Assembly: GCA_016182045.1 (NCBI GenBank)
Contig: JACOYE010000007.1
Coordinates: 98,121-162,120, forward strand
DNA length: 64,000 nucleotides
Direction: 5' to 3'
Source: Candidatus Microgenomates bacterium
GTDB taxonomy: Bacteria; Patescibacteriota; Microgenomatia; Daviesbacterales; UBA10151
Part shown: positions 28,896 through 52,320 of the stretch, in pieces
Numbering within the stretch: position 1 is the stretch's first letter
Layout of the letters: the number at the start of each line of letters is the position of its first letter
Position numbers and translations under genes: made by a program
Notes under the pieces: generated by a model
What the model saw: the letters and a program-made list of their open reading frames with translations, nothing else
The model's database searches: none
What the model was told of the DNA's origin: nothing

Positions 28896-29903
28896 GTGGT
28901 AAGCTTAAAATTAATGTCCAAAATATCTTTCTATCTAATTTCAGCTGTAACCTTTTTTCTGGTGATGACACTCTTTCTAAAATTCCCGCAGGTTATTCAA
29001 GCCCAGTCAATACCAACCATAGGAGATCTTAAGGTAGGAGAATCTAAACAAATCACTGTATCCGGTTTAGACGCAAAGGAAAAATACTATTGGAGTGAAT
29101 CAAAAGTGACATCTGTTATCCTTGGCCAAACTAACACTCCTATTTTTTATGGTTGTTTTGACTCCAGTGACAAGGGGGAGATACAACGGACCATAGGACC
29201 GTTTTCAACACCAGGACTTTATAAATTAGTAATCGATAGGTCTGAAACTGGCTGTACACCCTCGGGCAATCCAGTGGTATCACAAGACTTTTCGGTGGGA
29301 GGACCAACAGGGCAGAGTTGTTGTACTGCAGCTTTGCCGCGTTATGATAGAAATAAAGATGTCTGTGCAGATATAACCCTACATAATCCTCTACTTCCAC
29401 AACAGACGATTGAAGTAGAAACAGAATGTTCCAACACAAACCCTAAAAGCTACTGTGAACCAGAATCTTTACAATGTTTTACCACTAAAACTCAGGTAAA
29501 GGCCGGGAAAATATGTTTCGATCCTCACGAGCCAGGTTTTGATAAAAATAAACATATTATTTGCGCTAAAAGTGGAGGACAAGAAATTACCGGATGCACT
29601 GATAATAAAGACAATCCGGGGATTGCCACTGCCATTGGCTGTATACATACCTCACCGGTTGGATTTGTTAAAGACGCTTTAAAGTTTATCATTGCCATCT
29701 CTGGGGGTTTGGCATTTTTGATGATGCTTTTGGGAGCATTTCAGATGCTGACATCAGCCGGAAATCCCGAGACTTTGCAGGCCGGACGGGAAAGATTTCA
29801 ATCTGCCATCATCGGGCTTTTGTTTGTGATCTTTGCAGTTTTGCTGCTTCGCATCATTGGAGTTGATATACTGGGACTTGGAAAACAGTTTGGAGGACCA
29901 TGA
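28896..29903 (+). CDS. secreted Cys-rich protein fused to a C-terminal VirB2/TrbC-like T4SS pilin module
   Basis: signal peptide; ~20 Cys in residues 80-240; C-terminal LMMLLGAFQMLTSAGNPETLQAGRERFQSAIIGLLFVIFAVLLL matches the two-helix motif of the five downstream pilin paralogs. Confidence 0.5.
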   Translation: MVSLKLMSKISFYLISAVTFFLVMTLFLKFPQVIQAQSIPTIGDLKVGESKQITVSGLDAKEKYYWSESKVTSVILGQTNTPIFYGCFDSSDKGEIQRTIGPFSTPGLYKLVIDRSETGCTPSGNPVVSQDFSVGGPTGQSCCTAALPRYDRNKDVCADITLHNPLLPQQTIEVETECSNTNPKSYCEPESLQCFTTKTQVKAGKICFDPHEPGFDKNKHIICAKSGGQEITGCTDNKDNPGIATAIGCIHTSPVGFVKDALKFIIAISGGLAFLMMLLGAFQMLTSAGNPETLQAGRERFQSAIIGLLFVIFAVLLLRIIGVDILGLGKQFGGP

Positions 29904-30298
29904 TGATAATGTCAAATTACAAATTTCAAATTACAAATGAAGGTCAAAATCCAAATACTAAAAAGAAATATGATCTTGAGGAAAGGACTGCCAAGTTTGG
30001 GGAAAAGATTCTGGAGTTTGCCAAAAAAATACCACAAAACCCTGTAACATTACCAATCATCAGTCAGCTGGTACGTTCAGGCACCAGTATAGGAGCTAAT
30101 TATTGCGAAGCAGACGGGGCGGAAAGCAAAAAAGACTTCAGACATAAAATAGGAATTTGTAAAAAAGAAGCTAAGGAAACTAAACATTGGCTTAGGATGG
30201 TAGCAAAAGCTGTACCAGACCTTGCACCGGAAGCAAGGGAGTATTGGCAAGAAGCTCAGGAATTGACTTTAATTTTTTCGGCAATTATCAGAAAATAA
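29900..30298 (+). CDS. four-helix-bundle protein (TIGR02436-like, 23S rRNA IVS-protein family)
   Basis: SIGANYCEADGAESKKDFRHKIGICKKEAKETKHWLRM signature. Confidence 0.7.
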   Translation: MMIMSNYKFQITNEGQNPNTKKKYDLEERTAKFGEKILEFAKKIPQNPVTLPIISQLVRSGTSIGANYCEADGAESKKDFRHKIGICKKEAKETKHWLRMVAKAVPDLAPEAREYWQEAQELTLIFSAIIRK

Positions 30299-30407
30299 AA
30301 TATAATGACAAAATCCAAATTACAAATGGCAAATCAAACCTAAATGTCAAAGACAAAAAATTTGTCATTTAGGCTTTGAAATTCATTTGACATTTGGACT
30401 TTGAGCT

Positions 30408-30728
30408 TTGATATTACCAGCTATGTTAAACGATTTACTAAAAGATAGCGGTGTCCCAAATTTTGGCGGTGCAAATGCCAATTTGGGAGCGGTTCTTTCA
30501 GGCCTTTTAAATATTACCTTCTTTATAGCAGTATTTATGACCTTTTACTGGCTGGTCTGGGGATCATTCCAATATATTTTAGCTCAGGGCGAAAAGGAAA
30601 AACTGGCCAGGGCCAGGGAAAGAATCAAATGGGCCATAATAGGACTGTTAGTAGTCTTAATGTCTTATTCTTTTGCCAGATTTGCTTCTGAAATATTCCC
30701 ACCGGGAAAAGGAGGACTACCATTCTAA
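30408..30728 (+). CDS. VirB2/TrbC-like T4SS pilin family protein, paralog 1
   Basis: two hydrophobic helices flanking W(G)x..xxGEKEKLARARERIKWAIIGL loop motif. Confidence 0.5.
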   Translation: MILPAMLNDLLKDSGVPNFGGANANLGAVLSGLLNITFFIAVFMTFYWLVWGSFQYILAQGEKEKLARARERIKWAIIGLLVVLMSYSFARFASEIFPPGKGGLPF

Positions 30729-30778: not shown

Positions 30779-31033
30779 TTGGGAGAAGGAACTTCCAGAT
30801 TGGTTGGACCGATGTTTGCTGCGGCTGCTGTAGCAGTAATTTTATACTTTTTATTTGGAGCATTTTTCTATTTAAGATCAGCCGGAGATAAAGAGGAGAT
30901 CCAAAATGCCAGAAATATGATGACTCATGCTATTGTTGGATTTATACTGTTAATATTTGCCTTTCTGATTTTACAGTTTTTGTTGTATAGTTTATTTGGT
31001 CAACAGATTCCCTTTATCGGAGGAGAAAAATGA
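30779..31033 (+). CDS. VirB2/TrbC-like pilin paralog 2
   Basis: LFGAFFYLRSAGDKEEIQNARNMMTHAIVGF motif. Confidence 0.5.
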   Translation: MGEGTSRLVGPMFAAAAVAVILYFLFGAFFYLRSAGDKEEIQNARNMMTHAIVGFILLIFAFLILQFLLYSLFGQQIPFIGGEK

Positions 31034-31497
31034 TAGTTAAAACTTTTTTGTTTATATTATTTACCGTTTACTCTCTACTATTTACTGTCCCTGTTTATGC
31101 CCGGCCATGTTACCAAGCTCCTGATGGATCACTAATATGCCCTACCCTTTCTCCTGCTCCGACACCAAATGCCATAGAAAGCATTTTTGGCAAAATTATC
31201 CCTCCTGATGCTTTAAAAGGCCTCTTACAACAAGACCCCACCGGGGCCGGGGCCATCAGTAATTTTTTATCCAGACTGGTGGCTTTAATTTATGTTTTTG
31301 CTGCCATAATTTTAATCTTCATGCTGCTTTGGGGAGCCTGGGACTGGATGACCTCTGAGGGAGATAAGGAAAAGATCCAATCTGCCAGAAATAAAATCAT
31401 CAATGCTTTTATTGGTATTTTACTTTTTGCGGTGGCTTTTGCAGTTATCCGAGTTCTGGGACAATTTACCGGTTTTACCTTCTTTGTGGGACAATAG
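31030..31497 (+). CDS. VirB2/TrbC-like pilin paralog 3
   Basis: signal peptide; LLWGAWDWMTSEGDKEKIQSARNKIINAFIGILLFAVAFAV. Confidence 0.55.
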   Translation: MIVKTFLFILFTVYSLLFTVPVYARPCYQAPDGSLICPTLSPAPTPNAIESIFGKIIPPDALKGLLQQDPTGAGAISNFLSRLVALIYVFAAIILIFMLLWGAWDWMTSEGDKEKIQSARNKIINAFIGILLFAVAFAVIRVLGQFTGFTFFVGQ

Positions 31498-31536: not shown

Positions 31537-31920
31537 ATGGCTATGCGAAAATTAGCACTGGTAGGATCATCAATAGTCTATCTTCTTTCCGCAGTGATGG
31601 TATTTGCCCAATCACCCACCCCACAAATCAAAATTTCTCCTCCCACCCAAGGTTACTCTGATCTGGGGGCTTTTGTGACCAATGTTTTAACTTTGTCTTT
31701 TATAGTGGCTGTCCTAGTAGTTTTGGTGATGCTGATTTGGGGAGCTTTTGAATGGATCACTTCCGGTGGAGACAAGGAAGCAGTAGGAAAAGCCAGAAAC
31801 AGAATCATCAATGCCTTGATTGGCCTGGCTGTTTTGGCTGTGGCTTTTGCCCTATTTAAAGTGGCAGGTCAATTTTTGGGCTTCCCCACCACAGAATTTA
31901 CCATTCCCACACCACCTTAA
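31537..31920 (+). CDS. VirB2/TrbC-like pilin paralog 4
   Basis: signal peptide; LIWGAFEWITSGGDKEAVGKARNRIINALIGLAVLAVAFAL. Confidence 0.55.
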   Translation: MAMRKLALVGSSIVYLLSAVMVFAQSPTPQIKISPPTQGYSDLGAFVTNVLTLSFIVAVLVVLVMLIWGAFEWITSGGDKEAVGKARNRIINALIGLAVLAVAFALFKVAGQFLGFPTTEFTIPTPP

Positions 31921-31965: not shown

Positions 31966-32313
31966 ATGGGTCCTGATCCAGCTGGCTTAAAACAAATAGA
32001 GGATGTTTTTACCAACATTATCTCGGTGGTGGTGGGGTTGGGTTTTATTACTCTTTTGGTTTTGCTTGTTTGGGCCGGAATTAAATATTTAATCTCAGGG
32101 GGAGAGCCAAAAGCCATCCAGCAGGCTCATCTAATAGTCACCTGGGCTCTTTTGGGAGTCCTATTTTTGGCCATAGCCTGGCTGGTATTACAACTTGTGG
32201 GAGCTTTTACCGGACTTCCTGTAACTATCTTTAATGTCAGAGCCCTTTGCGAAGTGGGCGGTACCCAATTTTGCACCCCCACTCCAAGTCCAAGTCCAAC
32301 TCCCAGCCCTTAG
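31966..32313 (+). CDS. VirB2/TrbC-like pilin paralog 5 (diverged), Pro/Ser/Thr-rich tail
   Basis: LVWAGIKYLISGGEPKAIQQAHLIVTWALLGVLFLAIAW; C-terminal TPTPSPSPTPSP. Confidence 0.45.
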   Translation: MGPDPAGLKQIEDVFTNIISVVVGLGFITLLVLLVWAGIKYLISGGEPKAIQQAHLIVTWALLGVLFLAIAWLVLQLVGAFTGLPVTIFNVRALCEVGGTQFCTPTPSPSPTPSP

Positions 32314-32352: not shown

Positions 32353-34188
32353 ATGGTAGGGAAACCCAAAGCTCAAATGTCAAATTTCAAATCAAATCTA
32401 AATTTCAAAAAATTTGTCATTTGTCATTTTAATTTTGGCATTCATTTGTTATTTGTTATTTTGATTTTGACATTAGTGGCCACTCCAGTTTCAGCCCAGA
32501 CCTCCACCCCATCTGCCTCCCCCCTACAACCTACCACCTACAACCTACCACCTACTGTTTCACCCACCTCCCCTCTCTACACCGACCTTTTAGTCCACAA
32601 CTTATTCCATTCATTTAGTTGTCTGGCAGTGGGTCAATCTGTCATTGGCCAAGCTTGTTTAACCTACCAGCTTACCCAAAATACTCAAGGAGCTATTCAA
32701 TCCATACCGGTTTTATCACAGACTAATTTATCTGGGGGAGCTTTGGGGGCCACCACCTCTTTGATAGGCATGCTTTATCAAAATCCTCCGATCAGAACAG
32801 CTGATTATCTGGCATCAGTGGGACAAGGTTTGGGAATTGTGAAGGAAGCTCATGCCCAAGTGGTAGGGTCTGGGGCCAATGTCTTAAGTCCAATTTTAGC
32901 TCTTTGGCAGGTTTCAAGAAATATAGCTTACTTGGTAATGATTATAATTTTTGTAATTATAGGGCTGATGGTGATGTTCAGACAAAGGATTAACCCTCAA
33001 ACAGTCATCACAGCTCAAGCTGCATTACCCGGTCTTGTGATTGGCCTAATTTTAATAACCTTTAGCTACTTTTTGGCAGGATTAATATCAGATACGGCCT
33101 TTATTGGCACAAATTTGGTAGGGGCTTACTTTTCTGCAGTTAAAGGACACTCAGACAAACCGCAAAATCTGGTAGATGAGATAAAATCTCAAAATGTTTT
33201 AACTATTTTCACTCCCTTTACCAGAATAGCCAGCTTTGACAAAGTTAGCGATGCCCTGAGTTCAATCTGGAATGATCTAGCAGATCCAAATGTATGTAGG
33301 AATTGTCCATGGGAACAGGATCCACAGAAAGTTCTGACTGCCCTGATGGCATTTCTGGTTGCTCAAGTTATCATGCCCTTTGGAGGAATGCTTGGGGGAC
33401 CAGGACAATTGGCAGCTGGGGTGATATCATTTGGGGGAGCTGCCCTTCTTCCTACACAACTGGTCACTGTAGGCCTAACCTTTGTAGCCATGGTAATTTT
33501 GATTTATGCCATGTTTAGATTACTACTGCGATTGATTAATAATTATCTCAGCATTATTTTTTTGACAATCACCGCTCCATTTCAATTTTTAGCTGCCGCT
33601 TTGCCGGGCAGACAGGGAACCGCCACCAATTGGATTCTACAGATGCTGGCCAATATCTTGGCATTTCCGGCTGTTTTGGCAGTGTTTTATTTCGTGGCCT
33701 TTTTGTTAGGCCAAGATTTTGGCCCCCTTAAAGTTTCTCAGATAAACCAAGTGCAAAACAATGGACCGGTAACAGCTGCATACGCACAAGGTAAAATCAA
33801 TGTGGCAGATATTGAAACTTTTCCTTTGTTTGGCGGCATGGATTTAGAGTTTATCAGGATTCTTTTGGCTTTCGGGGCACTGGTGGCATTGCCTAAGATT
33901 CCTGATTTGGTGGCAAGAGCCCTGGGAGCAGTAAGTGAGGCAGGACAACTGCTCGGTCAGGAACTGGGTGGCAGCGTTGCTGCAGGCAGAGGCTATGCCG
34001 GCCAATTCCAACAAGGTGCTAGCGGTCTGGCTGGACAAGCGGGTAGACTGACAAACGAAACATACTACTATAGAGATGAAGCTGGCAATCTAAAAGTAAA
34101 TCCAATGTTGTCTCGAGCTGGACAAATATCGAAAGCTATATCTAATGTGAAGGGATGGTTTGGTAGAGGTCCGAAACCTACTATCTAG
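32353..34188 (+). CDS. polytopic membrane protein, candidate VirB6/TrbL-like T4SS channel subunit
   Basis: signal peptide, Pro/Thr-rich region, then >=8 TM helices; position directly after pilin genes. Confidence 0.35.
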   Translation: MVGKPKAQMSNFKSNLNFKKFVICHFNFGIHLLFVILILTLVATPVSAQTSTPSASPLQPTTYNLPPTVSPTSPLYTDLLVHNLFHSFSCLAVGQSVIGQACLTYQLTQNTQGAIQSIPVLSQTNLSGGALGATTSLIGMLYQNPPIRTADYLASVGQGLGIVKEAHAQVVGSGANVLSPILALWQVSRNIAYLVMIIIFVIIGLMVMFRQRINPQTVITAQAALPGLVIGLILITFSYFLAGLISDTAFIGTNLVGAYFSAVKGHSDKPQNLVDEIKSQNVLTIFTPFTRIASFDKVSDALSSIWNDLADPNVCRNCPWEQDPQKVLTALMAFLVAQVIMPFGGMLGGPGQLAAGVISFGGAALLPTQLVTVGLTFVAMVILIYAMFRLLLRLINNYLSIIFLTITAPFQFLAAALPGRQGTATNWILQMLANILAFPAVLAVFYFVAFLLGQDFGPLKVSQINQVQNNGPVTAAYAQGKINVADIETFPLFGGMDLEFIRILLAFGALVALPKIPDLVARALGAVSEAGQLLGQELGGSVAAGRGYAGQFQQGASGLAGQAGRLTNETYYYRDEAGNLKVNPMLSRAGQISKAISNVKGWFGRGPKPTI

Positions 34189-34202: not shown

Positions 34203-37200
34203 CTAAATTATCTTATCGGTCAACCAATCTTCAATTGATTCAGATCCTGTTGTCTTATTCCCTCCTTCATAGATTTTAAACTTTTTAGAAAGGAAGCTAT
34301 TCCAATATTTTTCCCTTCTGTATACATCAGCTCCACCTCCTGGGCTCTCATCCTGCAACCAATCATAAAATCCTCTTCGTCCTTCCTCCCCATACAAAAA
34401 TGCATCTTGTCTATTCCTGGCAGTACCATTATTTTTTAGGATATCTTTGTCTGATTCAATGGCAGTATTAAAACTACCATCCGACAAAAATACCTCTACT
34501 TCCTCTAGATTTAAAGCTCCTGCTGAATTATCAGTGGCTGAATACATCACCCTCATATCATGGGTAACCTTTGTTAACCTGCCAAAACATTCTTTAAATT
34601 TATATAGAAACGGTATGGTCTTTGTTGCACTATCTAAAAGGTCTCCAGAGATAGCGTCTCCAGCATATCCATGCATAGTTTCATTATTATCAGTTGGTTT
34701 TTCATACAAACCAAAAACCCACTCTCCTGTTTGAGGATCAACATAGCCAACTGAATGATTAAACATTTCAACTGCTTTATCCTGCACTTCAAAAATTTTC
34801 GTCAGTCCAAATTGTCCCACTATGCCTTGGTGCGAAATCTTCTTGATTTCATCTGCCATTACCTTAACTGCTCCAGATAATCCATGTACTCCCCATCTGG
34901 GACCTGCGGCATCATGTTCAAAAGGAGCATCAGCAATTTCAGCACCAAGTCTTCTGGATAAACGAGAAGTTTGCTGAGCTGCAAATTCCACAAAACCTAA
35001 TGTAAACCTATCCATTCCTGCCCAATCCTCGTTCCTATAACCTACCCGCATCCTGCCTATATAACCATCTCTAGGAAGAAATGCTCTATATAATCCATGC
35101 TTCCCTCTTTGTCTATCTTGAAATGACTCTAAGACGGCAGCTGCTACAAGGGCAACTTCTCTTTGTTGTTGAACATCTTCAAACTTTTTAACCCGTCTTA
35201 AAGTTGGATCTACAATCAAAAGTTGGGTGGCTAATATATCTTCATCTTCCCAACGAGACAAACCGTCTCTGATTCGTTCTGCTACCTTAAAGATACGAGG
35301 AGCCAATATAGTCACTCTATTATTGCCCTGGTAATACCAATAGGTATGGTCAGTATAACGGTTACGAAAATCGCTACTTTGGGCAGCTATTTGGAAAGTT
35401 GCTACTGCTTCCTCAACTAAAGTATCCCCTACTAGCTTTGCTTTGGTATTTTTGTTGATATTGTCATAATTAACAAGCTGACGATCATTAGGATCAGCTT
35501 TATCATAAATAATAACTTTACCATCCTGATCAAACTCTAATCCTATTGGATTGCCGTTATTATCAAAAGAAAGTTTAACTTCTTTGCCTGCCTGGTTAAA
35601 ACCCAAGATTTCACCATTTTTGAATTTTGTGAATTGACCTGTATTAGGCTCTATCCTTCCCAGCGGTCTTTTAAAAGTCATTGGTTTTGGTTGACCATCT
35701 GGACCTAACTCATCATCCAAAAGTTGAGCTGTATATCCCTTTGTTCTTAATTCTTCTGTCAACCTTGCTCTTGCTTCTCTTACTTTTTGCCTTCTGACTT
35801 TTGCCGGTTCGTTTGCATATTTCATCTTGGTCCAGGTAACACCCCATTGGACAAAGTTTTCTGCCTGGTAAGTTGGGATATTGTCAACAAAGTCATGTTT
35901 ATCTTCAGGGCTTAGCCGTGCATAAAGATCTTGCCAATATTTAGGAAAGCTATCTAGTCTTTTGCCACCGCTTTCCCCACCTCTCATTTTGTATAACATC
36001 CAGCCTATCTCGAACGATCTTCTATTAGCTTGCGGGAGAGAATCTCTTATTTTTTCAATTTCCTCTACTTTAAGTGCATCCGTATTTATTACTTTTGTTT
36101 TGTCTGTATCTATCCATTTCAGTCTTAATCCATCACTCACACTCTGGTAATATTGAATATGAGGATTTCTGTCCACATATAAAAATCCTCTACCTCTTCT
36201 AGCTTTCTCTCCTAATACTCCCTGCATTTGAAAAGCAATATCAAAATTAGCTGCTGCTTCATCATAAGCTGCCTTGTATGCTTGTCGATCTCGCGGACTT
36301 AATCGATCAATTGCCTTTTCGCCTTTTTCTAATTTTATCTGACCCCTAATTATAGCTTGTCTGAGTTCCCGAAGCTGTACCTGAATTCTTCCTAAATCTA
36401 TTGACTTTCTGATGGTTTCCGGGAGGTCAGCAAAAGCTGGATATTTTCTTTGATACTGTCTTTGATCTTCGGGCTTACTTTGATCTTCGGCAAAACGGTC
36501 TTGATCTTCTTTATAGCTTAGATAATTTTTAATGTGGTAATCACCTTTATCAAAACCTTCGTATAATCTTTTAAACTCTTCATCGGATTTGGTCAGGCCG
36601 AGTCTTTTTAAATTTGCTCTGTAAGCATTAAGCCTGGCTTGATCATGTACACGCTTTGCCTGATTATCTCCACCTAGTAGATCAATCGCTGTTTCGCCTG
36701 GCTTCAATTTTATTCTACCAGTGCTGATATCGTTTTCTATACTTCGAAGATCTGACTTAATTCTCTCTAAATCGCCGGCCGCATCAATTTTCGCTTGTAA
36801 ATCATCAGAGTTAAAATACTCATCCCTAGGATCATAATCCTTAAGCACAATACCCATTCCTCTTTCAATTACCATCTCCTGAATTTGATCTTGTTTGAAA
36901 TGACCAGCAACAATATCTAACTCTCCTCTTTCTCCTACAGGATTATTATAAATATCCATTACATCTTCGAAGTCAAAAATCTCAGTAAAAACAGCTACTC
37001 CCCCTTTTCCTGCTCGATATAATGCTACCCATCTGGCTGGCCCTTCATCCAAAGACATTGCCACCATTGCCTCTTTTTTCTGCTTGGGGTTATAAACCTC
37101 ATTTGCATAGTTACCCACAAAAACATATAATAATGCTTCCAGTTCCAACCTATTTTCTTCCAAAAAATCAGCATCGATATTACCTTCTCTGACCTGTCTT

Positions 37201-40091: not shown

Positions 40092-40137
40092 TGAAAACTT
40101 AGGACTGATTTTAGTTTAGAGCTTTGTTAAACTTACT

Positions 40138-42309: not shown

Positions 42310-42385
42310 TGTCAAATCCTGATCAGTTTACACTAAGCGATGCGTAAGTGCTTGATTTCATTCTGATGGAATCCTAACGAAATTA
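42310..42385. repeat. R-family element, copy R4
   Basis: TGTCAAATCCTGATCAGTTTACACTAAGCGATGCGTAAGTGCTTGATTTCATTCTGATGGAATCCTAACG. Confidence 0.6.
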
Positions 42386-42398
42386 CGGCTATATTGTA

Positions 42399-43092: not shown

Positions 43093-43114
43093 ATAAAAAC
43101 ATAATACACTATTT

Positions 43115-43468: not shown

Positions 43469-43547
43469 ACCTTACATTCCGCAATCGCGGCTGATACAAA
43501 ACTTATTTTAAAGTATCAATTATCATTTTGGCAAGTAGACTATCTAA

Positions 43548-43922: not shown

Positions 43923-44171
43923 TTAAATATCACCTTCATAAAATAGTTTATTTATTTCCTCATCCTCTTTATCGAAATCTTTAGGAACCCAAACTTTACC
44001 TTTCCATAATCCCAATTTGCGGGGTTTTAACTTTTCTTTATAAGGACTAAGTTTAGCCACAGGTTTGCCTGCTTTGGCAATAATAACCTCCTCCCCTTTG
44101 GAGGTTTTTTCAATAAGTTTAGACAGGTTTGTTTTAGCATCGTGAATGTTTACAACTTGCATGGTAATCAT
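43923..44171 (-). CDS. Phd/YefM-type antitoxin (VapB)
   Basis: 82 aa directly upstream, adjacent without overlap (1-nt apart) with VapC. Confidence 0.6.
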   Translation of the reverse strand: MITMQVVNIHDAKTNLSKLIEKTSKGEEVIIAKAGKPVAKLSPYKEKLKPRKLGLWKGKVWVPKDFDKEDEEINKLFYEGDI

Positions 44172-45626: not shown

Positions 45627-45672
45627 AACCCTCTCTTCGAGGGTTAAGTTTACTCTTTGACTCGAAGAGATA
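45627..45672. repeat. R-family-related hairpin element, copy R5 (AACCCTC-TCTTC-GAGGGTT then GTTAAGTTTACTCT..CTCGAAGAG)
   Basis: shares AAGTTTAC core and CTTCGA/TCGAAG arms with R2. Confidence 0.45.
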
Positions 45673-45962
45673 TTAAAGGAACCCAGGCAGCCCGACTGTA
45701 ACGGTTACGGCATAGTGATAGAATTACACTATCTTCCCCTGGAAAAGATTAGTCTGATCCAATCTGTCCCCTTTAAATTGTAAATTCAGCTTAAATTAAG
45801 TCAGAATCTTTGTCAATCCACCAGATGTTGTATCAATACCTTGTAGTTACTCACAGAAATGGTGGGGATTGTGCTTAAATGATCCTTTTTGTACCCCTAG
45901 ACTCATTAATTTTCACGCAGTAGGATAACTCATAGTTAGCAGAAAGAAACGGTCCCTAATTT

Positions 45963-47009
45963 ATGGATGCACATCCTGTTCCTCAAAATGTCACCTCCTT
46001 CCAATTCAAATTGGTGGGGGATATGACTTTAAAACAATTTATTTATTTGGCTGCAGGGGTTGGTATTGCCTATTTTATCTTTGTCTTTCTGACAGCCGAC
46101 TACCCTGTGGTTGCCTGGCCCCTGATTGTCATCTCCACCATCCTGGGTGCAGCTTTTGCCTTTTTACCAATAGGGTCAAGGCCCCTGGATTACTGGCTGG
46201 GAGCATTTTTAAAAGCCATCTACTCCCCCACCAAAAGAGTCTGGCAAAAAAACAAGAAAAGTTACCTTCAGGATCCCCTTTTTAAAAGTAGATACGTGAT
46301 GTTTGCTTCCACTTTACATCCTCAACCGCCGATCGGTCCAATCCTCAGGCCGGTTGATCAAACCCAACCTGCCGGAACTTTACAGGTTAGCCTGGCGCTT
46401 TCACCACCTTCCCCCTCCAATCTGCCCACCCAAGAGGAACTTAAGAAAACAGTGGAGCTGGCTCGTCAGGCTCAAATATTACAAACCCAAATTATCCAGA
46501 CCGAAAGAGCTCTGGATCAAATTAGAGCAAAAGCCAATCAACCCATTGCTGCTCCCGCTGATTACACTGAGCAGGTCAACAAAATCATGACCGATTTACA
46601 AAGATTGATCAGTCAAACTTCTAATATTAAGAGCGAACTGGATGCTGTCAGTCATCCTGAGCAAACCGAACCTCAAGTTGTGGTACCTAAAGAAAAGTTA
46701 AGGGTGGTGATACCCAAAAAAACTCAACCTCAGGTAGCTTTAACCATCTTTCCCAATGTGATAAACGGTATTGTTAAAAATGTAGATGGGGATTATCTGG
46801 AAGGAGTAGTGGCAGTCATTTACGATAAAGAGGGCTTACCGGTCAGAGCTTTAAAAACTAACAAGCTGGGCCAATTTTCAGGCTCAACCCCTCTGCCCAA
46901 CGGTACATACACATTAGAGCTTGAGAAAGAAGACCTAAACTTTGATGCTTTACAAATAGAACTGGACGGTCAAATACTGCCACCGCTTATTATCACGGCT
47001 AAACAGTAA
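45963..47009 (+). CDS. T4SS-locus membrane protein: N-terminal two-TM region, Pro/Gln-rich coiled coil, C-terminal beta-sandwich-like domain
   Basis: TM helices at residues 27-46 and 50-70; C-terminal NGTYTLELEKED beta-sandwich-like segment. Confidence 0.35.
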   Translation: MDAHPVPQNVTSFQFKLVGDMTLKQFIYLAAGVGIAYFIFVFLTADYPVVAWPLIVISTILGAAFAFLPIGSRPLDYWLGAFLKAIYSPTKRVWQKNKKSYLQDPLFKSRYVMFASTLHPQPPIGPILRPVDQTQPAGTLQVSLALSPPSPSNLPTQEELKKTVELARQAQILQTQIIQTERALDQIRAKANQPIAAPADYTEQVNKIMTDLQRLISQTSNIKSELDAVSHPEQTEPQVVVPKEKLRVVIPKKTQPQVALTIFPNVINGIVKNVDGDYLEGVVAVIYDKEGLPVRALKTNKLGQFSGSTPLPNGTYTLELEKEDLNFDALQIELDGQILPPLIITAKQ

Positions 47010-47015
47010 AAATTT

Positions 47016-47765
47016 ATGAAAACAACTCAACAACATCTGGCTTTCGCCGATATCAAAGACGACCTGATTTTTCTAAAGGACGGAGGAGGGGCTTTGGTGT
47101 TACAAACTTCCGCAGTCAATTTTGGATTGTTATCGGCCCGCGAACAGGTGGCAATCATTGCTGCTTTTGCACAACTTCTAAACTCACTTTCTTTTAGCAT
47201 ACAAATTGTTGTCCACTCGGAAAGACTCAATATCTCCTCCTATCTTAATCTGTTGGACCAAGCTAAAAAGAGTCAAACCAATCCCCTTCTGTCCAAACTG
47301 ATGACTTCTTACCGCCAATTTATCCAAACCACCATTAAGGAAAACGAGGTTTTGGATAAAAAATTTTATATAGTCATTCCGCTTTTTAAGCTGGAGGTGG
47401 GACTTACTTCATCCAAAGAAGCACTGGATCAAAAAATTAAGACCGTACTTTTCCCCAGAAGAGATCAACTGATCCGCCAACTTAACAGAGTTGGCCTTAA
47501 GGCCACTCAACTGACTTCAACTAAACTGATCGATCTCTTTTATGATATCTACAACGGTGGGGAAGCAGAATTGTCACCACCTCAACCTTTAAGTGAAGCT
47601 GAACAGGTAAAACTTAATCAAGTCCAGCCAGTAATGGCACCTACAATTCAAAGCCAAAGCCCACTTCAGACCATCCCCCCTCAAGGACCAACCCCTTACC
47701 AACCATTGAGCAGTCAACCAACCAAAACCCATCCGTTTGTGGTGGAAGAATTGGAGGAAACTTAA
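47016..47765 (+). CDS. VirB4 extreme-N-terminal-like domain protein (separate ORF)
   Basis: HLAFADIKDDLIFLKDGGGALVLQTSAVNFGLLSAREQ...LNSLSFSIQIVVH resembles the first ~150 residues of VirB4/TrbE ATPases. Confidence 0.35.
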   Translation: MKTTQQHLAFADIKDDLIFLKDGGGALVLQTSAVNFGLLSAREQVAIIAAFAQLLNSLSFSIQIVVHSERLNISSYLNLLDQAKKSQTNPLLSKLMTSYRQFIQTTIKENEVLDKKFYIVIPLFKLEVGLTSSKEALDQKIKTVLFPRRDQLIRQLNRVGLKATQLTSTKLIDLFYDIYNGGEAELSPPQPLSEAEQVKLNQVQPVMAPTIQSQSPLQTIPPQGPTPYQPLSSQPTKTHPFVVEELEET

Positions 47766-47857: not shown

Positions 47858-49633
47858 TTGAAAATTATGAAGATACCAAAATTATTTAAAAAACCCAAAG
47901 CCCAAGAGGTTATTACTCCTCAATTAACCATTGAGGATGTCATTGCTCCTGCTGAGCTGGAGGTGGATTTTAATGAGTTGAAGATCAACAATTTTCATTT
48001 TAGGACTTATTTCGTGTCCAACTATCCCAGATTTATTGAACCTAATTGGCTGGAGCCTTTAATCTCTTTTGATCACTCTCTTTTGATTTCCATGTTTATT
48101 TATCCAACTCAACCGGCCGGTGTTTTGGATGAGTTAAAAAGAAAAATTGCCGAAATGGAAGCCACCATCCAAACCGACATAGAGAGGGGTAAGGCAGTTG
48201 ATCCGACAGTAGAGGTAGCATTGGAGGATGCCCGAACGCTTCAGGAACAACTGGTGAAAGGATCGGAAAGATTTTTCCAGTTTGCCTTGTACGTAACAGT
48301 CCCTGCTGCTACCAAAGAGGAGTTGCATAATACCTCCAAGCTGGTGGAGTCAACTTTGGCCTCTTTATCTATCACCTCCCAGCCGACCACCCTGCAGATG
48401 GAGGATGGTTTTAAATCAACCATCCCACAAGGGTTAGATCTTTTGAATCTGACTCACAATATGGATACCACCTCTTTGGCCACCACCTTCCCTTTTGCCT
48501 CATCGGAGTTGACTGCCAACGAAGGCATCATGTACGGCATTAACGAGCACAACGATTCCTTAATTTTGTTTGACAGATTCAGTTTGGAGAATGCCAATTC
48601 GGTTATCTTCGCCAAATCCGGGGCAGGCAAGAGCTATTTTGTCAAACTGGAAGCCTTAAGATCTTTAATGTTTGGAACAGAAATACTAATTATTGATCCT
48701 GAGCAGGAATATTTATCTTTATCTCAGGCAGTAGGTGGTGAGTATATTAATTTTTCTCCCTCTTCTGCTGTTAAAATCAATCCTTTTGATATGTCTTCTC
48801 AAGTATCGGAGGAAAATGAGTTAGGTAGAAAAATCCTCTCTTTGACAGCCTTTCTAAAAATTGTCCTGGGAAACTTATCTGCCCAGGAAGCAGCTATTTT
48901 GGACCGGGCCTTAAAGCAAACTTATTCGCTCAAAGGCATTACCGATGACCCCAAAACACAAAGCAATCCGCCAGCCGGCGGACCACCTTTGATGGAAGAT
49001 TTATACAAAGTGTTAATCGGCATGGAGGAACAACCCGCCCTGGAGCTGGCAGCCAGACTGGAAAGATTTATCAAAGGATCGCTGTCTGGTATTTTCTCTC
49101 AACAATCAAATGTGGACTTATCCAATTCCTTCACGGTTTTTTCTTTAAGAGATCTTCCGGATCAGCTAAGACCGCTGGCCATCCATATGATTTTAGATTA
49201 TGTCTGGACTAAGATCAGAAGCAAGTTAAAAAAAAGAATTATGGTGGTGGATGAGGCCTGGTATTTGATGAAAAATCCAGATTCTGCCGACTTTTTGGTG
49301 GACATGGCCAAAAGAGCTCGCAAATATTATTTGGGGCTGACCACCCTCACCCAAGACATCGAGGATTTTTTGGGGACCGAGAGAGGCAAGGAGATTATTT
49401 CCAACTCATCAATCCAAGTGCTACTTAAACAGGCTCCGGCCTCAATTGATCTGCTGGCTCAAATATTTAACTTATCAGAGGGGGAACAAAGACTTTTGCT
49501 ATCAGAAGGGATCGGTCAAGGGCTATTTTTTGCAGGCAATACTCATGTGGCTATGAGAGTGGTAGCCTCACCCCAGGAACATCAGTTGATCACCTCCAAT
49601 CCACAAGAAATATTGGCAAGACAAAATGTATAA
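47858..49633 (+). CDS. VirB4/TraC/TrbE-type T4SS ATPase
   Basis: Walker A AKSGAGKSY, IIDPEQEY, Walker B VVDEAW (DEAW hallmark), LTTLTQ motif. Confidence 0.8.
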   Translation: MKIMKIPKLFKKPKAQEVITPQLTIEDVIAPAELEVDFNELKINNFHFRTYFVSNYPRFIEPNWLEPLISFDHSLLISMFIYPTQPAGVLDELKRKIAEMEATIQTDIERGKAVDPTVEVALEDARTLQEQLVKGSERFFQFALYVTVPAATKEELHNTSKLVESTLASLSITSQPTTLQMEDGFKSTIPQGLDLLNLTHNMDTTSLATTFPFASSELTANEGIMYGINEHNDSLILFDRFSLENANSVIFAKSGAGKSYFVKLEALRSLMFGTEILIIDPEQEYLSLSQAVGGEYINFSPSSAVKINPFDMSSQVSEENELGRKILSLTAFLKIVLGNLSAQEAAILDRALKQTYSLKGITDDPKTQSNPPAGGPPLMEDLYKVLIGMEEQPALELAARLERFIKGSLSGIFSQQSNVDLSNSFTVFSLRDLPDQLRPLAIHMILDYVWTKIRSKLKKRIMVVDEAWYLMKNPDSADFLVDMAKRARKYYLGLTTLTQDIEDFLGTERGKEIISNSSIQVLLKQAPASIDLLAQIFNLSEGEQRLLLSEGIGQGLFFAGNTHVAMRVVASPQEHQLITSNPQEILARQNV

Positions 49634-49642
49634 TGGAACTGT

Positions 49643-51868
49643 ATGGCATTACGTGATGTCAAAAACTTTAGATTTTTATACAAGGCTTTAGAATATAAAT
49701 ACCTTCACCCACAAGCCAGTGGATATTTGGGGTTGGATTACGATCCTCACATTTATAAACTATTTTATGACACATTAACTTTTATCCAACAGACAGCGCA
49801 TGTGGATCTGAGAGATTATTTAAATATTAAAGATCCTAAAGTTTTAGAAAAATTTTATAAAGGTTTGGCCATAGATATAAGGTTAAGATTTTTAAGTAAA
49901 CCTGAAAGTGTGGCCACAGATGCTCGATATATTTTGACTGATGAGTATTATCAACAATATCCACAAGATTCAGAGGCAGAAAAAGAAGTTTTAGGGGCGC
50001 AAACATCCTCAACTGCATCTTCAGAATCTCAACAGCCAGGAATAGGATTCCCCTTTCCGGCAGGTTTAAGCGGACAGAGAATCCCCAGGAGAGTAGTTTA
50101 CATTGCACCCCAGACTAAAACTCCCCAAGCTAAATTATACGTGGCTGATAAAAGCGGCAGGGTGGTGGAAGAAAGAACCATCACTCCCACCTCAACAATT
50201 GTTAAGAAACCGGAAACACCATCAGTCTCAGAACACCCTCTGGGTGGAAAAACCATCAAAGCTGCTGAACAGCCAAAATTGGTGGTTGCAGAAGCACCTT
50301 CAAAGCAAATCTTTATTGCTGACAAAAGTGGGGCAATTAAAGGAATCCACAATATCAAATCTCCCAGCTGGTTAAAAACTTTCGGCTCAAATACCCAGAT
50401 ATTTACCAAAAAAGCTGTTAATCGTCTGGCTTCGGGCTTGACTAATTTCTTAAAGGGAGCGGGAGGAGCAGGGGGAGGTCTTTTGGGAGGTCTTGCTGGG
50501 ACAGGAGGCAGATTTTTAGGTGGCGCAGGAATTGGTGGTCTTAACTCCCTGGTATCTTTTTCTAATCAAATATCCAGAGGAAGTATTATTAAAGGCCCTC
50601 CAGGAAAATTCTGGCTGATTCTTTTGGGAGTGTTTCTTTTGGTAGGCACTATTGCCGCCATATCCCCTACCGGGCAACCAACTCCCACCGCTCAAGCAGG
50701 ACCAGTTGGACCTATAAATCTGTTAAGTTGTCAGCTTACCAGATCTGACCAAACACCGATACAAGGCTCTATTAAAAGCTCTATTCTGGTTAGATTATTC
50801 CAGGAAGCCGAACTTACCACTACAGTACCCGCAGCAGTTTTGGCAGGGATTGCCAGATTGGAAAACCCTAATTTTGTGATAAATGCCGATGATAATCATG
50901 ATGCCTTTTATGATAGAAATTTTACTGATCTGACAACTTGTACTCCTCATTTTGGCATGAGTCCCACCGGAGCATTGGGTCTAATGCAACTCCAACCGCC
51001 TGGCACAACAGGTTCATTTCCCTCAGGACTAGAACAGGGAGCTAAATTTTTAAATAAGACCTTGCAAGAGGTAAATTATTGTAATGTTAGAGAAAATATA
51101 TTCCTGGCTGCCGGATTTATTTTAAAAAAGCTACAAGGTTATAATATCGGGGATGGAACCAGGTGGGATCCTGCCTGGACAAATGACCAGAATGTTATCT
51201 ACAAGGTAGCGGAAAGTTTTTATGGCTGTCTACCCTATGGAGGTTCAAACCCTACCAAATGTGAGGGACCTTACAGTTATGGCCAGGATCTTTGGGCCAG
51301 TATCCAATCCTGTCAATCTATAGCATCACAACCTCTGGGCTGTCCAGCCATAGGAACTATCACTGGCCCTTACGGGTATAATATCCCTGATTATAATTAT
51401 CAGAACGAAGGATGTACCCCTCTTCAAAACTGCCATAACGGCATTGACATAGGTGCTTCTTTAGGTGATACGCTAGTATCAACCATTGAGGGAATAGTCA
51501 CAGAAATAGGTGACAATCATCCTCAAAGAGGTGATTATATCCAAATCTCAAATCAATCATCTGCGCTTGTCATAACCTATGAGCATATGTTAGATATCAG
51601 TGTACAAAAGGGAGAACAAATACAAAGGGGTCAAAAAGTAGGAACGGTTGGGGAGGGCGGTGAGGGTGTCAGTGGTCCTCATCTACATTATAAAATCCAA
51701 AAAAACGGAAACCTCCTTAATCCTTTTAAATATCTGGGTGATTCTTCTCCTCCTCTCCCATCACATACTCTGGCTTCATCTGATAATCTGGCAGATAACG
51801 ATTATGCTAATGTTCCCATTACTCCTGAAATAAGGGATAACTGGGGGCAGTGTAATAAATCACCATGA
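49643..51868 (+). CDS. bifunctional cell-wall hydrolase: lytic transglycosylase (SLT-like) + M23 metallopeptidase, membrane-anchored (VirB1/CwlT/TcpG analogue)
   Basis: TM at ~aa 325; GALGLMQLQP (SLT); HNGIDIG ... GPHLHY (M23 HxxxD / HxH). Confidence 0.7.
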   Translation: MALRDVKNFRFLYKALEYKYLHPQASGYLGLDYDPHIYKLFYDTLTFIQQTAHVDLRDYLNIKDPKVLEKFYKGLAIDIRLRFLSKPESVATDARYILTDEYYQQYPQDSEAEKEVLGAQTSSTASSESQQPGIGFPFPAGLSGQRIPRRVVYIAPQTKTPQAKLYVADKSGRVVEERTITPTSTIVKKPETPSVSEHPLGGKTIKAAEQPKLVVAEAPSKQIFIADKSGAIKGIHNIKSPSWLKTFGSNTQIFTKKAVNRLASGLTNFLKGAGGAGGGLLGGLAGTGGRFLGGAGIGGLNSLVSFSNQISRGSIIKGPPGKFWLILLGVFLLVGTIAAISPTGQPTPTAQAGPVGPINLLSCQLTRSDQTPIQGSIKSSILVRLFQEAELTTTVPAAVLAGIARLENPNFVINADDNHDAFYDRNFTDLTTCTPHFGMSPTGALGLMQLQPPGTTGSFPSGLEQGAKFLNKTLQEVNYCNVRENIFLAAGFILKKLQGYNIGDGTRWDPAWTNDQNVIYKVAESFYGCLPYGGSNPTKCEGPYSYGQDLWASIQSCQSIASQPLGCPAIGTITGPYGYNIPDYNYQNEGCTPLQNCHNGIDIGASLGDTLVSTIEGIVTEIGDNHPQRGDYIQISNQSSALVITYEHMLDISVQKGEQIQRGQKVGTVGEGGEGVSGPHLHYKIQKNGNLLNPFKYLGDSSPPLPSHTLASSDNLADNDYANVPITPEIRDNWGQCNKSP

Positions 51869-52320
51869 TCAGTAAAAAAAGCGTTTTGATTGTAGTTTTT
51901 ATTTTGGGAATGGTTTTGGTTTCGCTGAAATTAAGCTTACCCAAGACAGATAGTTTGCCCCAAACAAGCAAACAGCAGGTTGTGAACCAGAATGTAAGCG
52001 AAGCCTCTCCTCAAATTATTTCCACCAAACCAGATCCTTTGGAAGAGGCTATTATTTCCTCAACAGAAGTTATTGAAATTACATTTAACAGATCTTTGGA
52101 AAATGAGGGGGAACTTAAAGTGAGGATTGACCCAAAGATTGATTTTGAAATCAAGCTTTCCCAGGATCGCAAAGTGGGCAAGATCATTCCTAAAACCCCA
52201 TATGAGCTGGGTACCACCTACACCTTATTTATTGGCCCGGATACCAAGTTTGACGGGGTGGGAAGATGGGGAGAAGAAAAGATTTTCCACTTTAAAACAA
52301 TAACCTACAGGGGGGTGTGA
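51865..52320 (+). CDS. small secreted/membrane-anchored protein with Ig-like beta domain
   Basis: N-terminal TM/signal then beta-rich 100 aa. Confidence 0.35.
   Translation: MISKKSVLIVVFILGMVLVSLKLSLPKTDSLPQTSKQQVVNQNVSEASPQIISTKPDPLEEAIISSTEVIEITFNRSLENEGELKVRIDPKIDFEIKLSQDRKVGKIIPKTPYELGTTYTLFIGPDTKFDGVGRWGEEKIFHFKTITYRGV

What the first reader, a model, noticed from the sequence alone, without database searches (positions are those of the whole stretch)
28896..52320. T4SS-like pilus locus with six tandem VirB2/TrbC-type pilin paralogs, split by an inserted cassette region
Six consecutive small proteins (28896, 30408, 30779, 31030, 31537, 31966) share a signal peptide followed by a two-helix hairpin with a conserved loop motif, roughly W-G-A-x-x-W-[MI]-T-S-x-G-[DE]-K-E-x-I-x-x-A-R-N-x-I-x-N-A-x-I-G. 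This is the VirB2/TrbC pilin topology. They are followed by a >=8-TM protein (VirB6-like). After a ~11.7-kb intervening region (giant gene plus cassette array), the locus continues on the same strand with a membrane protein, a VirB4-N-terminal-like ORF, a DEAW-motif VirB4 ATPase, and an SLT+M23 wall hydrolase (VirB1/CwlT analogue). No relaxase, VirD4 coupling protein or VirB11 is present in the window. The locus is therefore more likely a pilus, attachment or DNA-uptake/effector apparatus than a self-transmissible conjugation system. Such minimal multi-pilin T4SS loci in small-genome bacteria are poorly characterised.
Basis: partly seen in the sequence, partly recalled or inferred. Interest (0 to 1): 0.85.

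Follow-up and report, generated by a model that had tools for sequence, protein, structure and literature searches.

The report
Patescibacterial chromosomal T4SS with pilin array
This is the chromosomal type IV secretion locus, with six VirB2-like pilin genes, that papers from 2023-2025 already describe for ultrasmall CPR/Patescibacteria bacteria, here in a Daviesbacteria-type genome beside the replication origin, so the call is right but not new.

Summary
All six ORFs score above Pfam's cut-off for PF18895 (T4SS_pilin). They are followed by an 8-TM protein, and further on by PrgI/VirB3, a TrsD-like VirB4 N-domain ORF, a CD1110-family VirB4 ATPase and an M23 wall hydrolase. The locus abuts dnaN/dnaA. 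No relaxase, VirD4 or VirB11 is present in the 64 kb.

The organism is a Microgenomates/Daviesbacteria MAG. This architecture is already published (Wang 2023; Quinonero-Coronel 2025): pilin arrays of 2-11 genes, no relaxase, next to dnaA.

- The "inserted" 11.7 kb is only partly an insertion. The giant gene and the 462-aa gene are conserved, divergently transcribed parts of the locus in relatives. Only 38781-44171 (two AAA_14/DUF4143 ATPases and three toxin-antitoxin pairs) is variable.
- The SLT domain is not confirmed.
- Only three of the six pilins have a signal-like N-terminus.
- The VirB6 assignment is plausible but unproven.

Additions from this work:
- Each pilin paralog has a colinear 1:1 ortholog in relatives (47-73% identity, against 19-45% between paralogs).
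- VirB4 is more conserved than DnaA or DnaN.
- A cobalamin riboswitch precedes the 462-aa gene in 8 of 12 loci.

The parts
28896..29903 (+). pil1: 335-aa protein with an N-terminal signal-like TM, a Cys-rich ectodomain of about 220 aa with no Pfam match, and a C-terminal T4SS_pilin domain (residues 259-320). First gene of the array in the window and in relatives.
   Evidence: PF18895 31.7 bits. TM segments. No Pfam match for the ectodomain. Only the C-terminal 116-133 aa are conserved in L005/L006 (58-65% identity), and the counterparts there are 383-504 aa.
29900..30298 (+). 23S rRNA intervening-sequence protein family gene (four-helix bundle) lying between pil1 and pil2. Window-specific filler, not part of the conserved set.
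   Evidence: PF05635 56.7 bits. No counterpart in L005 or L006 by tblastn. An IVP gene occupies a different variable slot in L003.
30408..30728 (+). pil2, VirB2-like pilin (106 aa)
   Evidence: PF18895 32.9 bits. NF045849 E 2.2e-5. Colinear ortholog at 65% in L006.
30779..31033 (+). pil3, VirB2-like pilin (84 aa, no leader as called)
   Evidence: PF18895 33.5 bits. NF045849 E 6.6e-8. Ortholog at 60% in L006.
31030..31497 (+). pil4, VirB2-like pilin (155 aa, signal-like N-terminus)
   Evidence: PF18895 30.1 bits. NF045849 E 4.1e-8. Ortholog at 73% in L006.
31537..31920 (+). pil5, VirB2-like pilin (127 aa, signal-like N-terminus)
   Evidence: PF18895 35.0 bits. NF045849 E 1.9e-6. Ortholog at 61% in L006.
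31966..32313 (+). pil6, VirB2-like pilin (115 aa, Pro/Ser/Thr-rich C-terminal tail)
   Evidence: PF18895 31.0 bits. Ortholog at 73% in L006.
32353..34188 (+). 611-aa polytopic membrane protein (8 hydrophobic segments). Candidate divergent VirB6.
34203..38627 (-). Giant 1474-aa hydrophilic protein with no TM or signal peptide and a Pro-rich disordered N-terminus. A giant gene holds this slot in relatives, but its sequence is hypervariable. Function unknown.
   Evidence: No Pfam or PDB hit, even with a family profile. 63 clusters among 1.84 billion representatives, most (53 of 63) 1160-2013 aa and the rest shorter, probably fragments. 32% identity to L006, 26% to L009, no BLAST hit to the L001/L003 counterparts. 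Same position in L001, L003, L005, L006 and L009.
38781..44171 (-). Variable cassette block: AAA_14+DUF4143 ATPase (38781-40091), ParE/RelB (40295-40884), AAA_14+DUF4143 (40951-42210), PIN/Phd (42399-43092), unknown 117 aa (43115-43468), PIN/Phd (43548-44171). Four cassettes are each followed by a copy of a 45-nt repeat.
   Evidence: Pfam. In relatives this slot holds one small gene or one TA pair. 45-nt repeat family D1; it is also present in the same slot of L006.
44233..45621 (-). 462-aa protein of unknown function: a confident alpha/beta core with no known fold match, an invariant GCG.S motif, a Gly-rich segment and a C-terminal Cys zinc ribbon. Divergent from prgI.
45627..45804 (-). Cobalamin riboswitch leader of the 462-aa gene: promoter-like site (45804-45777), aptamer (45756-45677), terminator-like hairpin (45645-45627) and a T-run ending 1 nt before the ATG at 45621.
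   Evidence: RF01689 44.3 bits against 36.5. Promoter and terminator scan and sequence. Same element 5' of the gene in L001, L003, L006, L007, L008, L011 and L013.
45963..47009 (+). PrgI/VirB3-like membrane protein with a long C-terminal extension (weak beta-sandwich-like match)
   Evidence: PF12666 35.6 bits against 27. TM hairpin at residues 26-68. CarboxypepD_reg E 0.004.
47016..47765 (+). TrsD/TraC-like ORF, a free-standing homolog of the VirB4 N-terminal domain
   Evidence: NF041427 TrsD E 1.4e-8; VirB4_plasma positions 132-284, E 2.9e-9. Orthologs carry PF26593 TraC-like and remain a separate ORF in every relative.
47858..49633 (+). VirB4 ATPase of MPF_FATA type (CD1110 family). It lacks its own N-domain. 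Annotated start is probably the ATG at 47867.
   Evidence: NF045971 388.8 bits against a cut-off of 325; PF19044 86.1 bits. Walker A and B motifs in the sequence. 81-86% identical in more than 100 Daviesbacteria proteins.
49643..51868 (+). 741-aa bitopic cell-wall hydrolase: N-terminal region, TM at 323-341, a central region with a GLMQ motif (SLT unproven) and a C-terminal M23 peptidase
   Evidence: PF01551 72.4 bits. PDB ShyA E 2.9e-13. SLT only E 0.081. TM.
51865..52320 (+). 151-aa membrane-anchored Ig-like (Big_5) protein, last gene of the operon
   Evidence: PF13205 24.5 bits against 23.6. Conserved at this position in L001, L003, L008 and L009.
52325..55392 (-). Landmark: dnaN (52325-53440), a 150-aa gene, and dnaA (54076-55392). 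The replication origin region abuts the T4SS operon.
   Evidence: Sequence and Pfam. Cumulative GC-skew minimum at about 52-54 kb. Same neighbours in relatives.

Best explanation
This is the vertically inherited chromosomal type IV secretion system typical of Patescibacteria (CPR), here in a Microgenomates/Daviesbacteria genome next to oriC. It is related to monoderm (MPF_FATA) conjugation machines. Proposed working, all inferred: PrgI/VirB3, the free-standing TrsD-like N-domain and the VirB4 ATPase form the energising complex at the cytoplasmic membrane. The 8-TM protein acts as the VirB6-like platform or translocon. The membrane-anchored M23 hydrolase opens the cell wall. VirB4 extracts six individually conserved VirB2-like pilins from the membrane and assembles them into a heteromeric pilus or conduit that contacts a host cell. 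The first pilin carries a variable Cys-rich ectodomain and is a candidate tip or adhesin subunit. With no relaxase or coupling protein nearby and fixed chromosomal synteny, the system most likely serves the host-dependent lifestyle, moving proteins or other macromolecules to or from a host, rather than transferring its own DNA. Shown here: gene identities, order, conservation and chromosomal position. Inferred: pilus formation, direction of transport and substrate.
For: Six PF18895 pilins score above the cut-off. VirB4 scores above the NCBIfam equivalog cut-off for the CD1110 family. PrgI is above the Pfam cut-off. The TrsD-like ORF and the M23 hydrolase are present. The exact VirB4 protein is annotated as 'Candidatus Microgenomates bacterium', and more than 100 Daviesbacteria homologs are 81-86% identical. 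Gene order runs from SpoIID through the pilins, the 8-TM protein, the giant gene, the 462-aa-type gene, prgI-trsD-virB4, the hydrolase and Big_5 to dnaN-dnaA, and it is the same in independent genomes. VirB4 (81-82%) is more conserved than DnaN (66%) or DnaA (57-64%), as expected for a core function. Each pilin has a colinear 1:1 ortholog at 47-73%, against 19-45% between paralogs, which argues for non-redundant roles. No relaxase, VirD4, VirB11 or integrase was found among the scanned ORFs of the window. Literature: the same architecture, pilin arrays of 2-11 genes enriched in Microgenomatia, lack of relaxase and proximity to dnaA (PMC12102498). The T4SS and its pilin array are essential in Southlakia epibionticum (PMC10633639; PMC12857230). 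Tubular structures that may be T4SS pili were seen at a parasite-host interface (bioRxiv 10.64898/2026.06.21.733656).
Against: No experiment exists for this lineage, and the substrate and direction of transport are unknown even in Saccharibacteria (PMC11665869). The VirB6 identity of the 8-TM protein is only weakly supported. No VirB8-like component was identified. A coupling protein or relaxase could be encoded elsewhere in the genome; only 64 kb of a 184-kb contig were visible. The pilins do not match the classical VirB2/TrbC Pfam model PF04956.
Confidence: 0.85

Rival explanations
1. The machine works in the import direction. It would be a pilus-coupled uptake apparatus for host nucleic acids or other nutrients, analogous to the ComB T4SS of Helicobacter or the archaeal Ced system, rather than an effector exporter.
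For: The VirB4 gives a weak match to the DNA-import ATPase CedB (NF041017, E 5e-14, far below cut-off). Reviews raise nutrient or nucleotide acquisition as a possibility because these bacteria lack biosynthesis and competence is dispensable in S. epibionticum (PMC11665869). A 2026 preprint reports uptake of host RNA by a cultured patescibacterium with T4SS-like tubes. A cobalamin riboswitch, a nutrient sensor, is embedded in the locus.
Against: There is no direct evidence. The CedB similarity is the generic similarity among VirB4-family ATPases, and CD1110-type conjugation ATPases score far higher (388.8 bits against 51.8 for CedB). No ComEC-like channel is linked to the locus.
Confidence: 0.25
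2. It is an ordinary conjugative element (ICE), or a remnant of one, whose relaxase and coupling protein lie outside the window.
For: All recognisable components are homologous to monoderm conjugation proteins: CD1110 VirB4, PrgI, TrsD, and Mycoplasma ICE pilin-like NF045849. T4CP homologs exist far from virB4 in many Patescibacteria genomes (PMC12102498). TA cassettes lie inside the locus.
Against: Position and gene order are fixed between housekeeping genes (SpoIID, dnaN, dnaA) across genomes. VirB4 is more conserved than DnaA. GC content does not differ from the flanks. No integrase, relaxase or T4CP is present in 64 kb. Relaxases are rare in the phylum, found in 103 genomes.
Confidence: 0.05
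3. The six small proteins are not pilus subunits. They would be membrane-resident two-helix proteins, for example channel or holin-like components, that merely share a topology with VirB2.
For: No pilus has been shown biochemically for any monoderm T4SS. PF04956 (TrbC/VirB2) does not hit. Three of the six lack a leader.
Against: All six score above the cut-off for PF18895, and no holin family appears among the sub-threshold matches. Five of six resemble the Mycoplasma ICE pilin-like conjugal transfer protein. They are always linked to the T4SS genes in relatives. The published structure-based annotation calls the Saccharibacteria counterparts pilins.
Confidence: 0.08

Closest known systems
Patescibacteria-clade T4SS (Quinonero-Coronel et al. 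2025, Microb Genom, PMC12102498; Southlakia epibionticum SEML1_0006-0019, Wang et al. 2023, Cell, PMC10633639)
   Same: A VirB4 related to MPF_FATA, a TrsD-like ORF, PrgI/VirB3, a peptidase-type wall hydrolase downstream of virB4, a tandem array of sequence-divergent VirB2-like pilins (six in S. epibionticum, six here), no relaxase or T4CP nearby, and a location next to dnaA/dnaN.
   Different: This is a Microgenomatia (Daviesbacteria) example. The survey found VirB6 homologs scarce in that class and VirB3 mostly not linked to virB4. Here PrgI is adjacent to virB4 and an 8-TM VirB6 candidate follows the pilins. The two operons are separated by a conserved, divergently transcribed pair: a riboswitch-led 462-aa gene and a hypervariable giant gene. 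The passages of these papers that I read do not mention that pair.
MPF_FATA conjugative T4SS of Firmicutes and Tenericutes (CTn2 CD1110, pGO1 Trs, pCF10 Prg, Mycoplasma ICE Mbov_0395-0397)
   Same: VirB4 passes the CD1110 equivalog cut-off. PrgI and TrsD homologs are present, as is a large bitopic wall hydrolase. Five of six pilins resemble the Mycoplasma ICE pilin-like protein NF045849 (E 4e-8 to 1.5e-3).
   Different: There is no relaxase, T4CP, PrgB-type adhesin or integrase. The locus is chromosomally fixed and not mobile. It carries a multi-gene pilin array. The hydrolase domain is M23 rather than CHAP.
VirB2 paralog arrays of diderm effector T4SSs (Bartonella Trw, Anaplasma, Rickettsia)
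   Same: Tandem, divergent VirB2-like pilin paralogs in a non-conjugative, host-interaction T4SS.
   Different: Those are MPF_T systems with an outer-membrane core, and their paralogs are thought to provide antigenic or host-range variation. Here each paralog is individually conserved across genomes in a fixed order, which suggests distinct structural roles instead.

Membership tests
Patescibacteria-clade chromosomal T4SS | VirB4 ATPase of the MPF_FATA-related type | tested here: met
   NF045971 (CD1110 family) 388.8 bits against a cut-off of 325; PF19044 86.1 bits; Walker A and B present. No phylogeny was run, so placement inside the 'Patescibacteria clade' is inferred from 81-86% identity to Daviesbacteria proteins.
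Patescibacteria-clade chromosomal T4SS | TrsD-like (VirB4 N-domain) ORF and PrgI/VirB3 next to virB4 | tested here: met
   PrgI PF12666 35.6 bits against 27. TrsD NF041427 E 1.4e-8, below the NCBIfam cut-off. Orthologs hit PF26593 TraC-like.
Patescibacteria-clade chromosomal T4SS | Tandem array of divergent VirB2-like pilins (PF18895) | tested here: met
   Six of six are above the gathering score. Identity between paralogs is 19-45%, against the published mean of 25%.
Patescibacteria-clade chromosomal T4SS | No relaxase or coupling protein linked to the locus | tested here: met
   None among the window ORFs scanned with Pfam or NCBIfam. The rest of the genome could not be examined.
Patescibacteria-clade chromosomal T4SS | Fixed chromosomal position near dnaA/dnaN | tested here: met
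   dnaN starts 4 nt after the last T4SS gene and dnaA is at 54076-55392. Same in L001, L003, L007, L008 and L009.
Patescibacteria-clade chromosomal T4SS | VirB6 polytopic membrane component | tested here: inconclusive
Patescibacteria-clade chromosomal T4SS | Essential for host-associated growth; forms a pilus | not testable with these tools
   Known only for S. epibionticum by Tn-seq. The strong conservation of VirB4 is merely consistent with it.
Self-transmissible conjugative element (ICE or plasmid, MPF_FATA) | Relaxase, T4CP, and integrase or att sites; variable genomic location | tested here: not met
   No such genes in the window. Conserved synteny between housekeeping genes. Uniform GC content.
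Classical VirB2/TrbC pilin (Pfam PF04956) | Match to the PF04956 profile | tested here: not met
   PF04956 is not among the hits at E 0.1 or better for any of the six. They belong to the separate family PF18895.
Classical VirB2/TrbC pilin (Pfam PF04956) | Leader peptide followed by two hydrophobic helices joined by a short polar loop | tested here: inconclusive
   The hairpin is present in all six. A leader-like segment is present in three of six as the ORFs are called.
VirB1/CwlT-type bifunctional hydrolase (lytic transglycosylase plus peptidase) | SLT or lysozyme-like domain in addition to the peptidase domain | tested here: inconclusive
   M23 is clear. SLT gives only E 0.081 over 15 residues (GLMQ motif), and the central region has no PDB sequence hit.

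The most novel reading that the evidence does not exclude
The conserved, divergently transcribed pair inside the locus could encode substrates or accessory factors of this T4SS whose expression responds to vitamin B12. The pair is a cobalamin-riboswitch-controlled protein with a swappable N-terminal body and a conserved C-terminal 'GCG / Gly-rich / zinc-ribbon' tail, and a hypervariable giant protein of about 1400 aa with no signal peptide. The conserved C-terminal tail on unrelated bodies recalls C-terminal T4SS translocation signals such as XVIPCD in Xanthomonas X-Tfe effectors (recalled from my own knowledge, not tested here). If true, it would link the essential but functionally unexplained patescibacterial T4SS to host-derived cofactor status and would name its first candidate cargo.
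Probability: 0.12. Interest if true: 0.7.

Novelty: already known. Interest (0 to 1): 0.3.

Why it matters
The patescibacterial T4SS is of real current interest. It is the only T4SS known to be essential for its owner's growth, it is the first monoderm-type system with pilins, and its substrate is unknown. This window adds another clear instance, from the little-studied Microgenomatia. It also adds some comparative points of use to specialists: strict 1:1 conservation of each pilin paralog, a VirB6 candidate in a class where VirB6 was reported scarce, pilin-like relatives in Mycoplasma ICEs, and a B12 riboswitch with two fast-evolving unknown genes fixed between the two T4SS operons. It does not reveal a new kind of system.

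Tried and rejected
- SLT domain in the hydrolase. A sub-region scan gave E 0.081 and no PDB hit. Not confirmed.
- Function of the giant protein. No Pfam hit, no PDB hit with the single sequence or a 34-sequence profile, and five long distant homologs also have no Pfam domain.
- The afdb50 fold library was unavailable.
- The 45-nt cassette-boundary repeats show no stable hairpin (z between -0.4 and -1.2), so I do not call them terminators or attC sites.
- The ICE reading, the holin reading and the FtsK/HerA reading were all rejected. DUF87 scores 37.6 bits, against 388.8 for the VirB4 model.

Full report
**1. What is there**

Between 28896 and 32313 on the + strand lie six ORFs. Each carries a C-terminal two-helix hydrophobic hairpin, and each scores above Pfam's gathering threshold for PF18895 'Type IV secretion system pilin' (30.1-35.0 bits against 26.6). 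Six adjacent hits above the cut-off cannot be chance.

- Pairwise identity over the pilin domain is 19-45%.
- Only pil1, pil4 and pil5 have a signal-like N-terminal hydrophobic segment as the ORFs are called.
- pil1 (335 aa) is different from the rest. It has a Cys-rich ectodomain of about 220 aa with no family match, placed in front of the pilin domain.
- A gene of the 23S-rRNA-IVP family (PF05635) sits between pil1 and pil2.
- The array is followed by a 611-aa protein with eight hydrophobic segments.

From 45963 on the same strand come five more genes:

- PrgI/VirB3 (PF12666, 35.6 bits against 27).
- A TrsD-like ORF that matches the N-terminal part of VirB4 models.
- A VirB4 ATPase that passes the NCBIfam equivalog cut-off for the CD1110 family (388.8 bits against 325). 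It matches positions 178-733 of that model, so it lacks its own N-domain.
- A 741-aa bitopic hydrolase with a clear M23 domain.
- A small anchored Ig-like protein.

dnaN starts 4 nt after this operon, and dnaA follows. The cumulative GC skew turns at about 52-54 kb. No relaxase, VirD4, VirB11 or integrase is found among the window ORFs scanned, which covered all ORFs of 180 aa or more plus the smaller cassette ORFs.

**2. Whose it is, and whether it is mobile**

The VirB4 is 100% identical to a protein annotated 'Candidatus Microgenomates bacterium' on a 184-kb contig. More than 100 Daviesbacteria proteins are 81-86% identical to it.

I fetched the locus from independent genomes: L001/L005, L003, L006, L007, L008 and L009. 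The order is the same in all. It runs SpoIID(-), a large pilin-domain protein plus four or five small pilins, the polytopic protein, a giant gene on the opposite strand, one or a few small variable genes, a gene of 400-490 aa on the opposite strand, then prgI-trsD-virB4-hydrolase-Big_5, dnaN and dnaA.

VirB4 is 81-82% identical between these genomes. That is more conserved than DnaN (66%) or DnaA (57-64%). GC content matches the flanks. This is a core, vertically inherited chromosomal locus and not an ICE.

**3. The 'inserted cassette region'**

Synteny shows that the giant gene (34203-38627, -) and the 462-aa gene (44233-45621, -) are fixed components. Only 38781-44171 is extra. It contains two AAA_14+DUF4143 ATPases, RelB/ParE, two Phd/PIN pairs and one unknown ORF. 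Relatives have one small gene or one TA pair in this slot.

Four of these cassettes are each followed by a copy of a 45-nt repeat. One copy lies in the same slot of L006. The repeats do not fold stably. Other variable slots lie before pil1 (MazE/PIN here, HicAB in L006) and inside the pilin array (an IVP gene here, three unknown genes in L005).

**4. Comparison with what is known**

The architecture is published.

- Wang et al. 2023 (PMC10633639) found an essential T4SS in Southlakia epibionticum. It includes a series of essential pilin genes and has no recognisable relaxase or coupling protein.
- Quinonero-Coronel et al. 2025 (PMC12102498) surveyed the phylum. They report a Patescibacteria VirB4 clade related to MPF_FATA, with TrsD, PrgI/VirB3, VirB6 and VirB1-like genes nearby. 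They found 441 VirB2 arrays of 2-11 genes, especially in Microgenomatia and Saccharimonadia, with a mean identity of 25%. Relaxases are rare, and the loci lie close to dnaA/dnaN.
- A 2025 review calls these systems unique among monoderm T4SSs for being essential and for possibly making pili (PMC12857230).
- Their function remains 'completely unknown' (PMC11665869).

The finding is therefore a correct recognition of a known kind.

**5. What this analysis adds**

(a) Each of the six paralogs has a colinear one-to-one ortholog in L006 (60-73%) and L005 (47-65%). That is far above the identity between paralogs. The array is old and each member is kept, which points to distinct structural roles rather than interchangeable variants. 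In pil1 only the pilin domain is conserved; the ectodomain varies. That fits a host-contact subunit.

(b) Five of the six pilins also resemble the Mycoplasma ICE 'Mbov_0395 pilin-like conjugal transfer protein' (NF045849, E 4e-8 to 1.5e-3, below its cut-off). Pilin-like proteins may therefore not be foreign to the MPF_FATA lineage.

(d) The SLT domain claimed for the hydrolase is not confirmed.

**6. The embedded pair and the riboswitch (side finding)**

A cobalamin riboswitch aptamer lies at 45677-45756(-) (RF01689, 44.3 bits against 36.5). It is preceded by a promoter-like site. It is followed by a terminator-like hairpin and a T-run ending 1 nt before the ATG of the 462-aa gene.

A cobalamin riboswitch above the gathering score lies in the same place in L001, L003, L006, L007, L008, L011 and L013. 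That makes 8 of 12 distinct complete loci, including a Roizmanbacteria genome. A full-text search for 'cobalamin riboswitch' together with 'Patescibacteria' found no paper.

The giant protein has no TM segment and no signal peptide. It evolves fast: 32% identity to the closest relative and none detectable to others. It belongs to a family of only 63 clusters among 1.84 billion representatives and has no detectable domain or PDB relative. It has its own promoter-like site, so riboswitch control of the giant gene is not established. Whether the two proteins are T4SS cargo or accessory factors is speculation (see the novel case).

**7. Verdict**

The system is a member of the published Patescibacteria T4SS kind, so novelty is low. 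The most likely mechanism is a VirB4-driven pilus or conduit, not used for conjugation, that serves interaction with a host cell. The identities of the parts are shown here. Pilus assembly, transport direction and substrate are inferred.

Noticed in passing
window 45627-45804 (-); also L001 7831-8069(-), L003 7819-8037(-), L006 18305-18476(-), L007 7908-7980(+), L008 7815-7968(+), L011 2184-2388(+), L013 2271-2350(+): A cobalamin riboswitch (RF01689 or RF00174, above gathering) lies between the two T4SS operons as the leader of the 462-aa-type gene. In the window, a promoter-like site precedes it and a terminator-like hairpin abuts the start codon; L001 also has a terminator-like hairpin at the 3' end of its aptamer. 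It is present in 8 of 12 complete loci examined and absent in L009, L012, L014 and L015. A full-text search found no paper linking cobalamin riboswitches and Patescibacteria.
   Followed up: partly
window 44233-45621 (-); L001 6427-7806(-); L003 6349-7812(-): The riboswitch-led slot holds proteins with unrelated N-terminal bodies in at least three versions. All share a conserved C-terminal tail: a GCG motif, a Gly-rich stretch and a CxxC...CxxC zinc ribbon. The window's version has a confident AF2 core with no PDB fold match.
   Followed up: partly
window 34203-38627 (-): A giant hydrophilic protein with no TM or signal peptide. A giant gene holds this position in Daviesbacteria relatives, but its sequence is hypervariable. 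The family has only 63 clusters among 1.84 billion representatives and no Pfam or PDB relative, even with a profile. Nearly invariant motifs include G..GEK..RG and DPTL.R.
   Followed up: partly
window 38736-38780, 40232-40276, 40904-40948, 42349-42393; L006 16243-16269: A 45-nt direct repeat (TGCTTGATT..ATTCT.AT..AATCCTGAC...) lies immediately 3' of four successive cassettes (AAA_14 ATPases and TA pairs). It is also found in the equivalent slot of the closest relative. Zero matches are expected by chance. It forms no stable hairpin. It may mark cassette boundaries in a recombination hot spot.
   Followed up: partly
window 29900-30298 (+); L003 5889-6269 (-): A 23S rRNA intervening-sequence-protein family gene (PF05635) overlaps the end of pil1 by 4 nt. 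The same family occupies a different variable slot of the locus in L003.
   Followed up: no
window 47858-49633 compared with 52325-55392: VirB4 is more conserved between Daviesbacteria genomes (81-82% identity) than DnaN (66%) or DnaA (57-64%). The hydrolase (26-35% over partial alignments) and the giant gene evolve fastest.
   Followed up: yes
window 28896-34188 and 45963-52320 (+) relative to the GC-skew minimum at about 52-54 kb: Both T4SS operons are on the + strand to the left of the inferred origin. They are therefore transcribed toward oriC, head-on to replication. Most genes at 1-28 kb are on the - strand.
   Followed up: no
window 22365-23561 (-), 38781-40091 (-), 40951-42210 (-): Three AAA_14+DUF4143 ATPase paralogs (25-34% identical to each other) lie in one 64-kb window. 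L009 carries one in the same cassette slot.
   Followed up: no
window 2599-3471 (-), 3678-4733 (-): Two neighbouring Fic/DOC-domain genes sit at the far left of the window.
   Followed up: no
L005 9622-9946: In the public gene calls for GCA_040960095.1, the ortholog of pil6 seems to be called on the wrong strand. A 102-aa ORF is called on the - strand, while tblastn places a 57%-identical pilin on the + strand at 9632-9946.
   Followed up: no
L011, L016: Two MAG contigs labelled 'uncultured Gammaproteobacteria' carry the Daviesbacteria-type 462-aa gene, and L011 also has the cobalamin riboswitch. They are probably mis-binned or mislabelled. L011 also has a SAM-I/IV riboswitch hit at 583-698(-), barely above gathering.
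   Followed up: no
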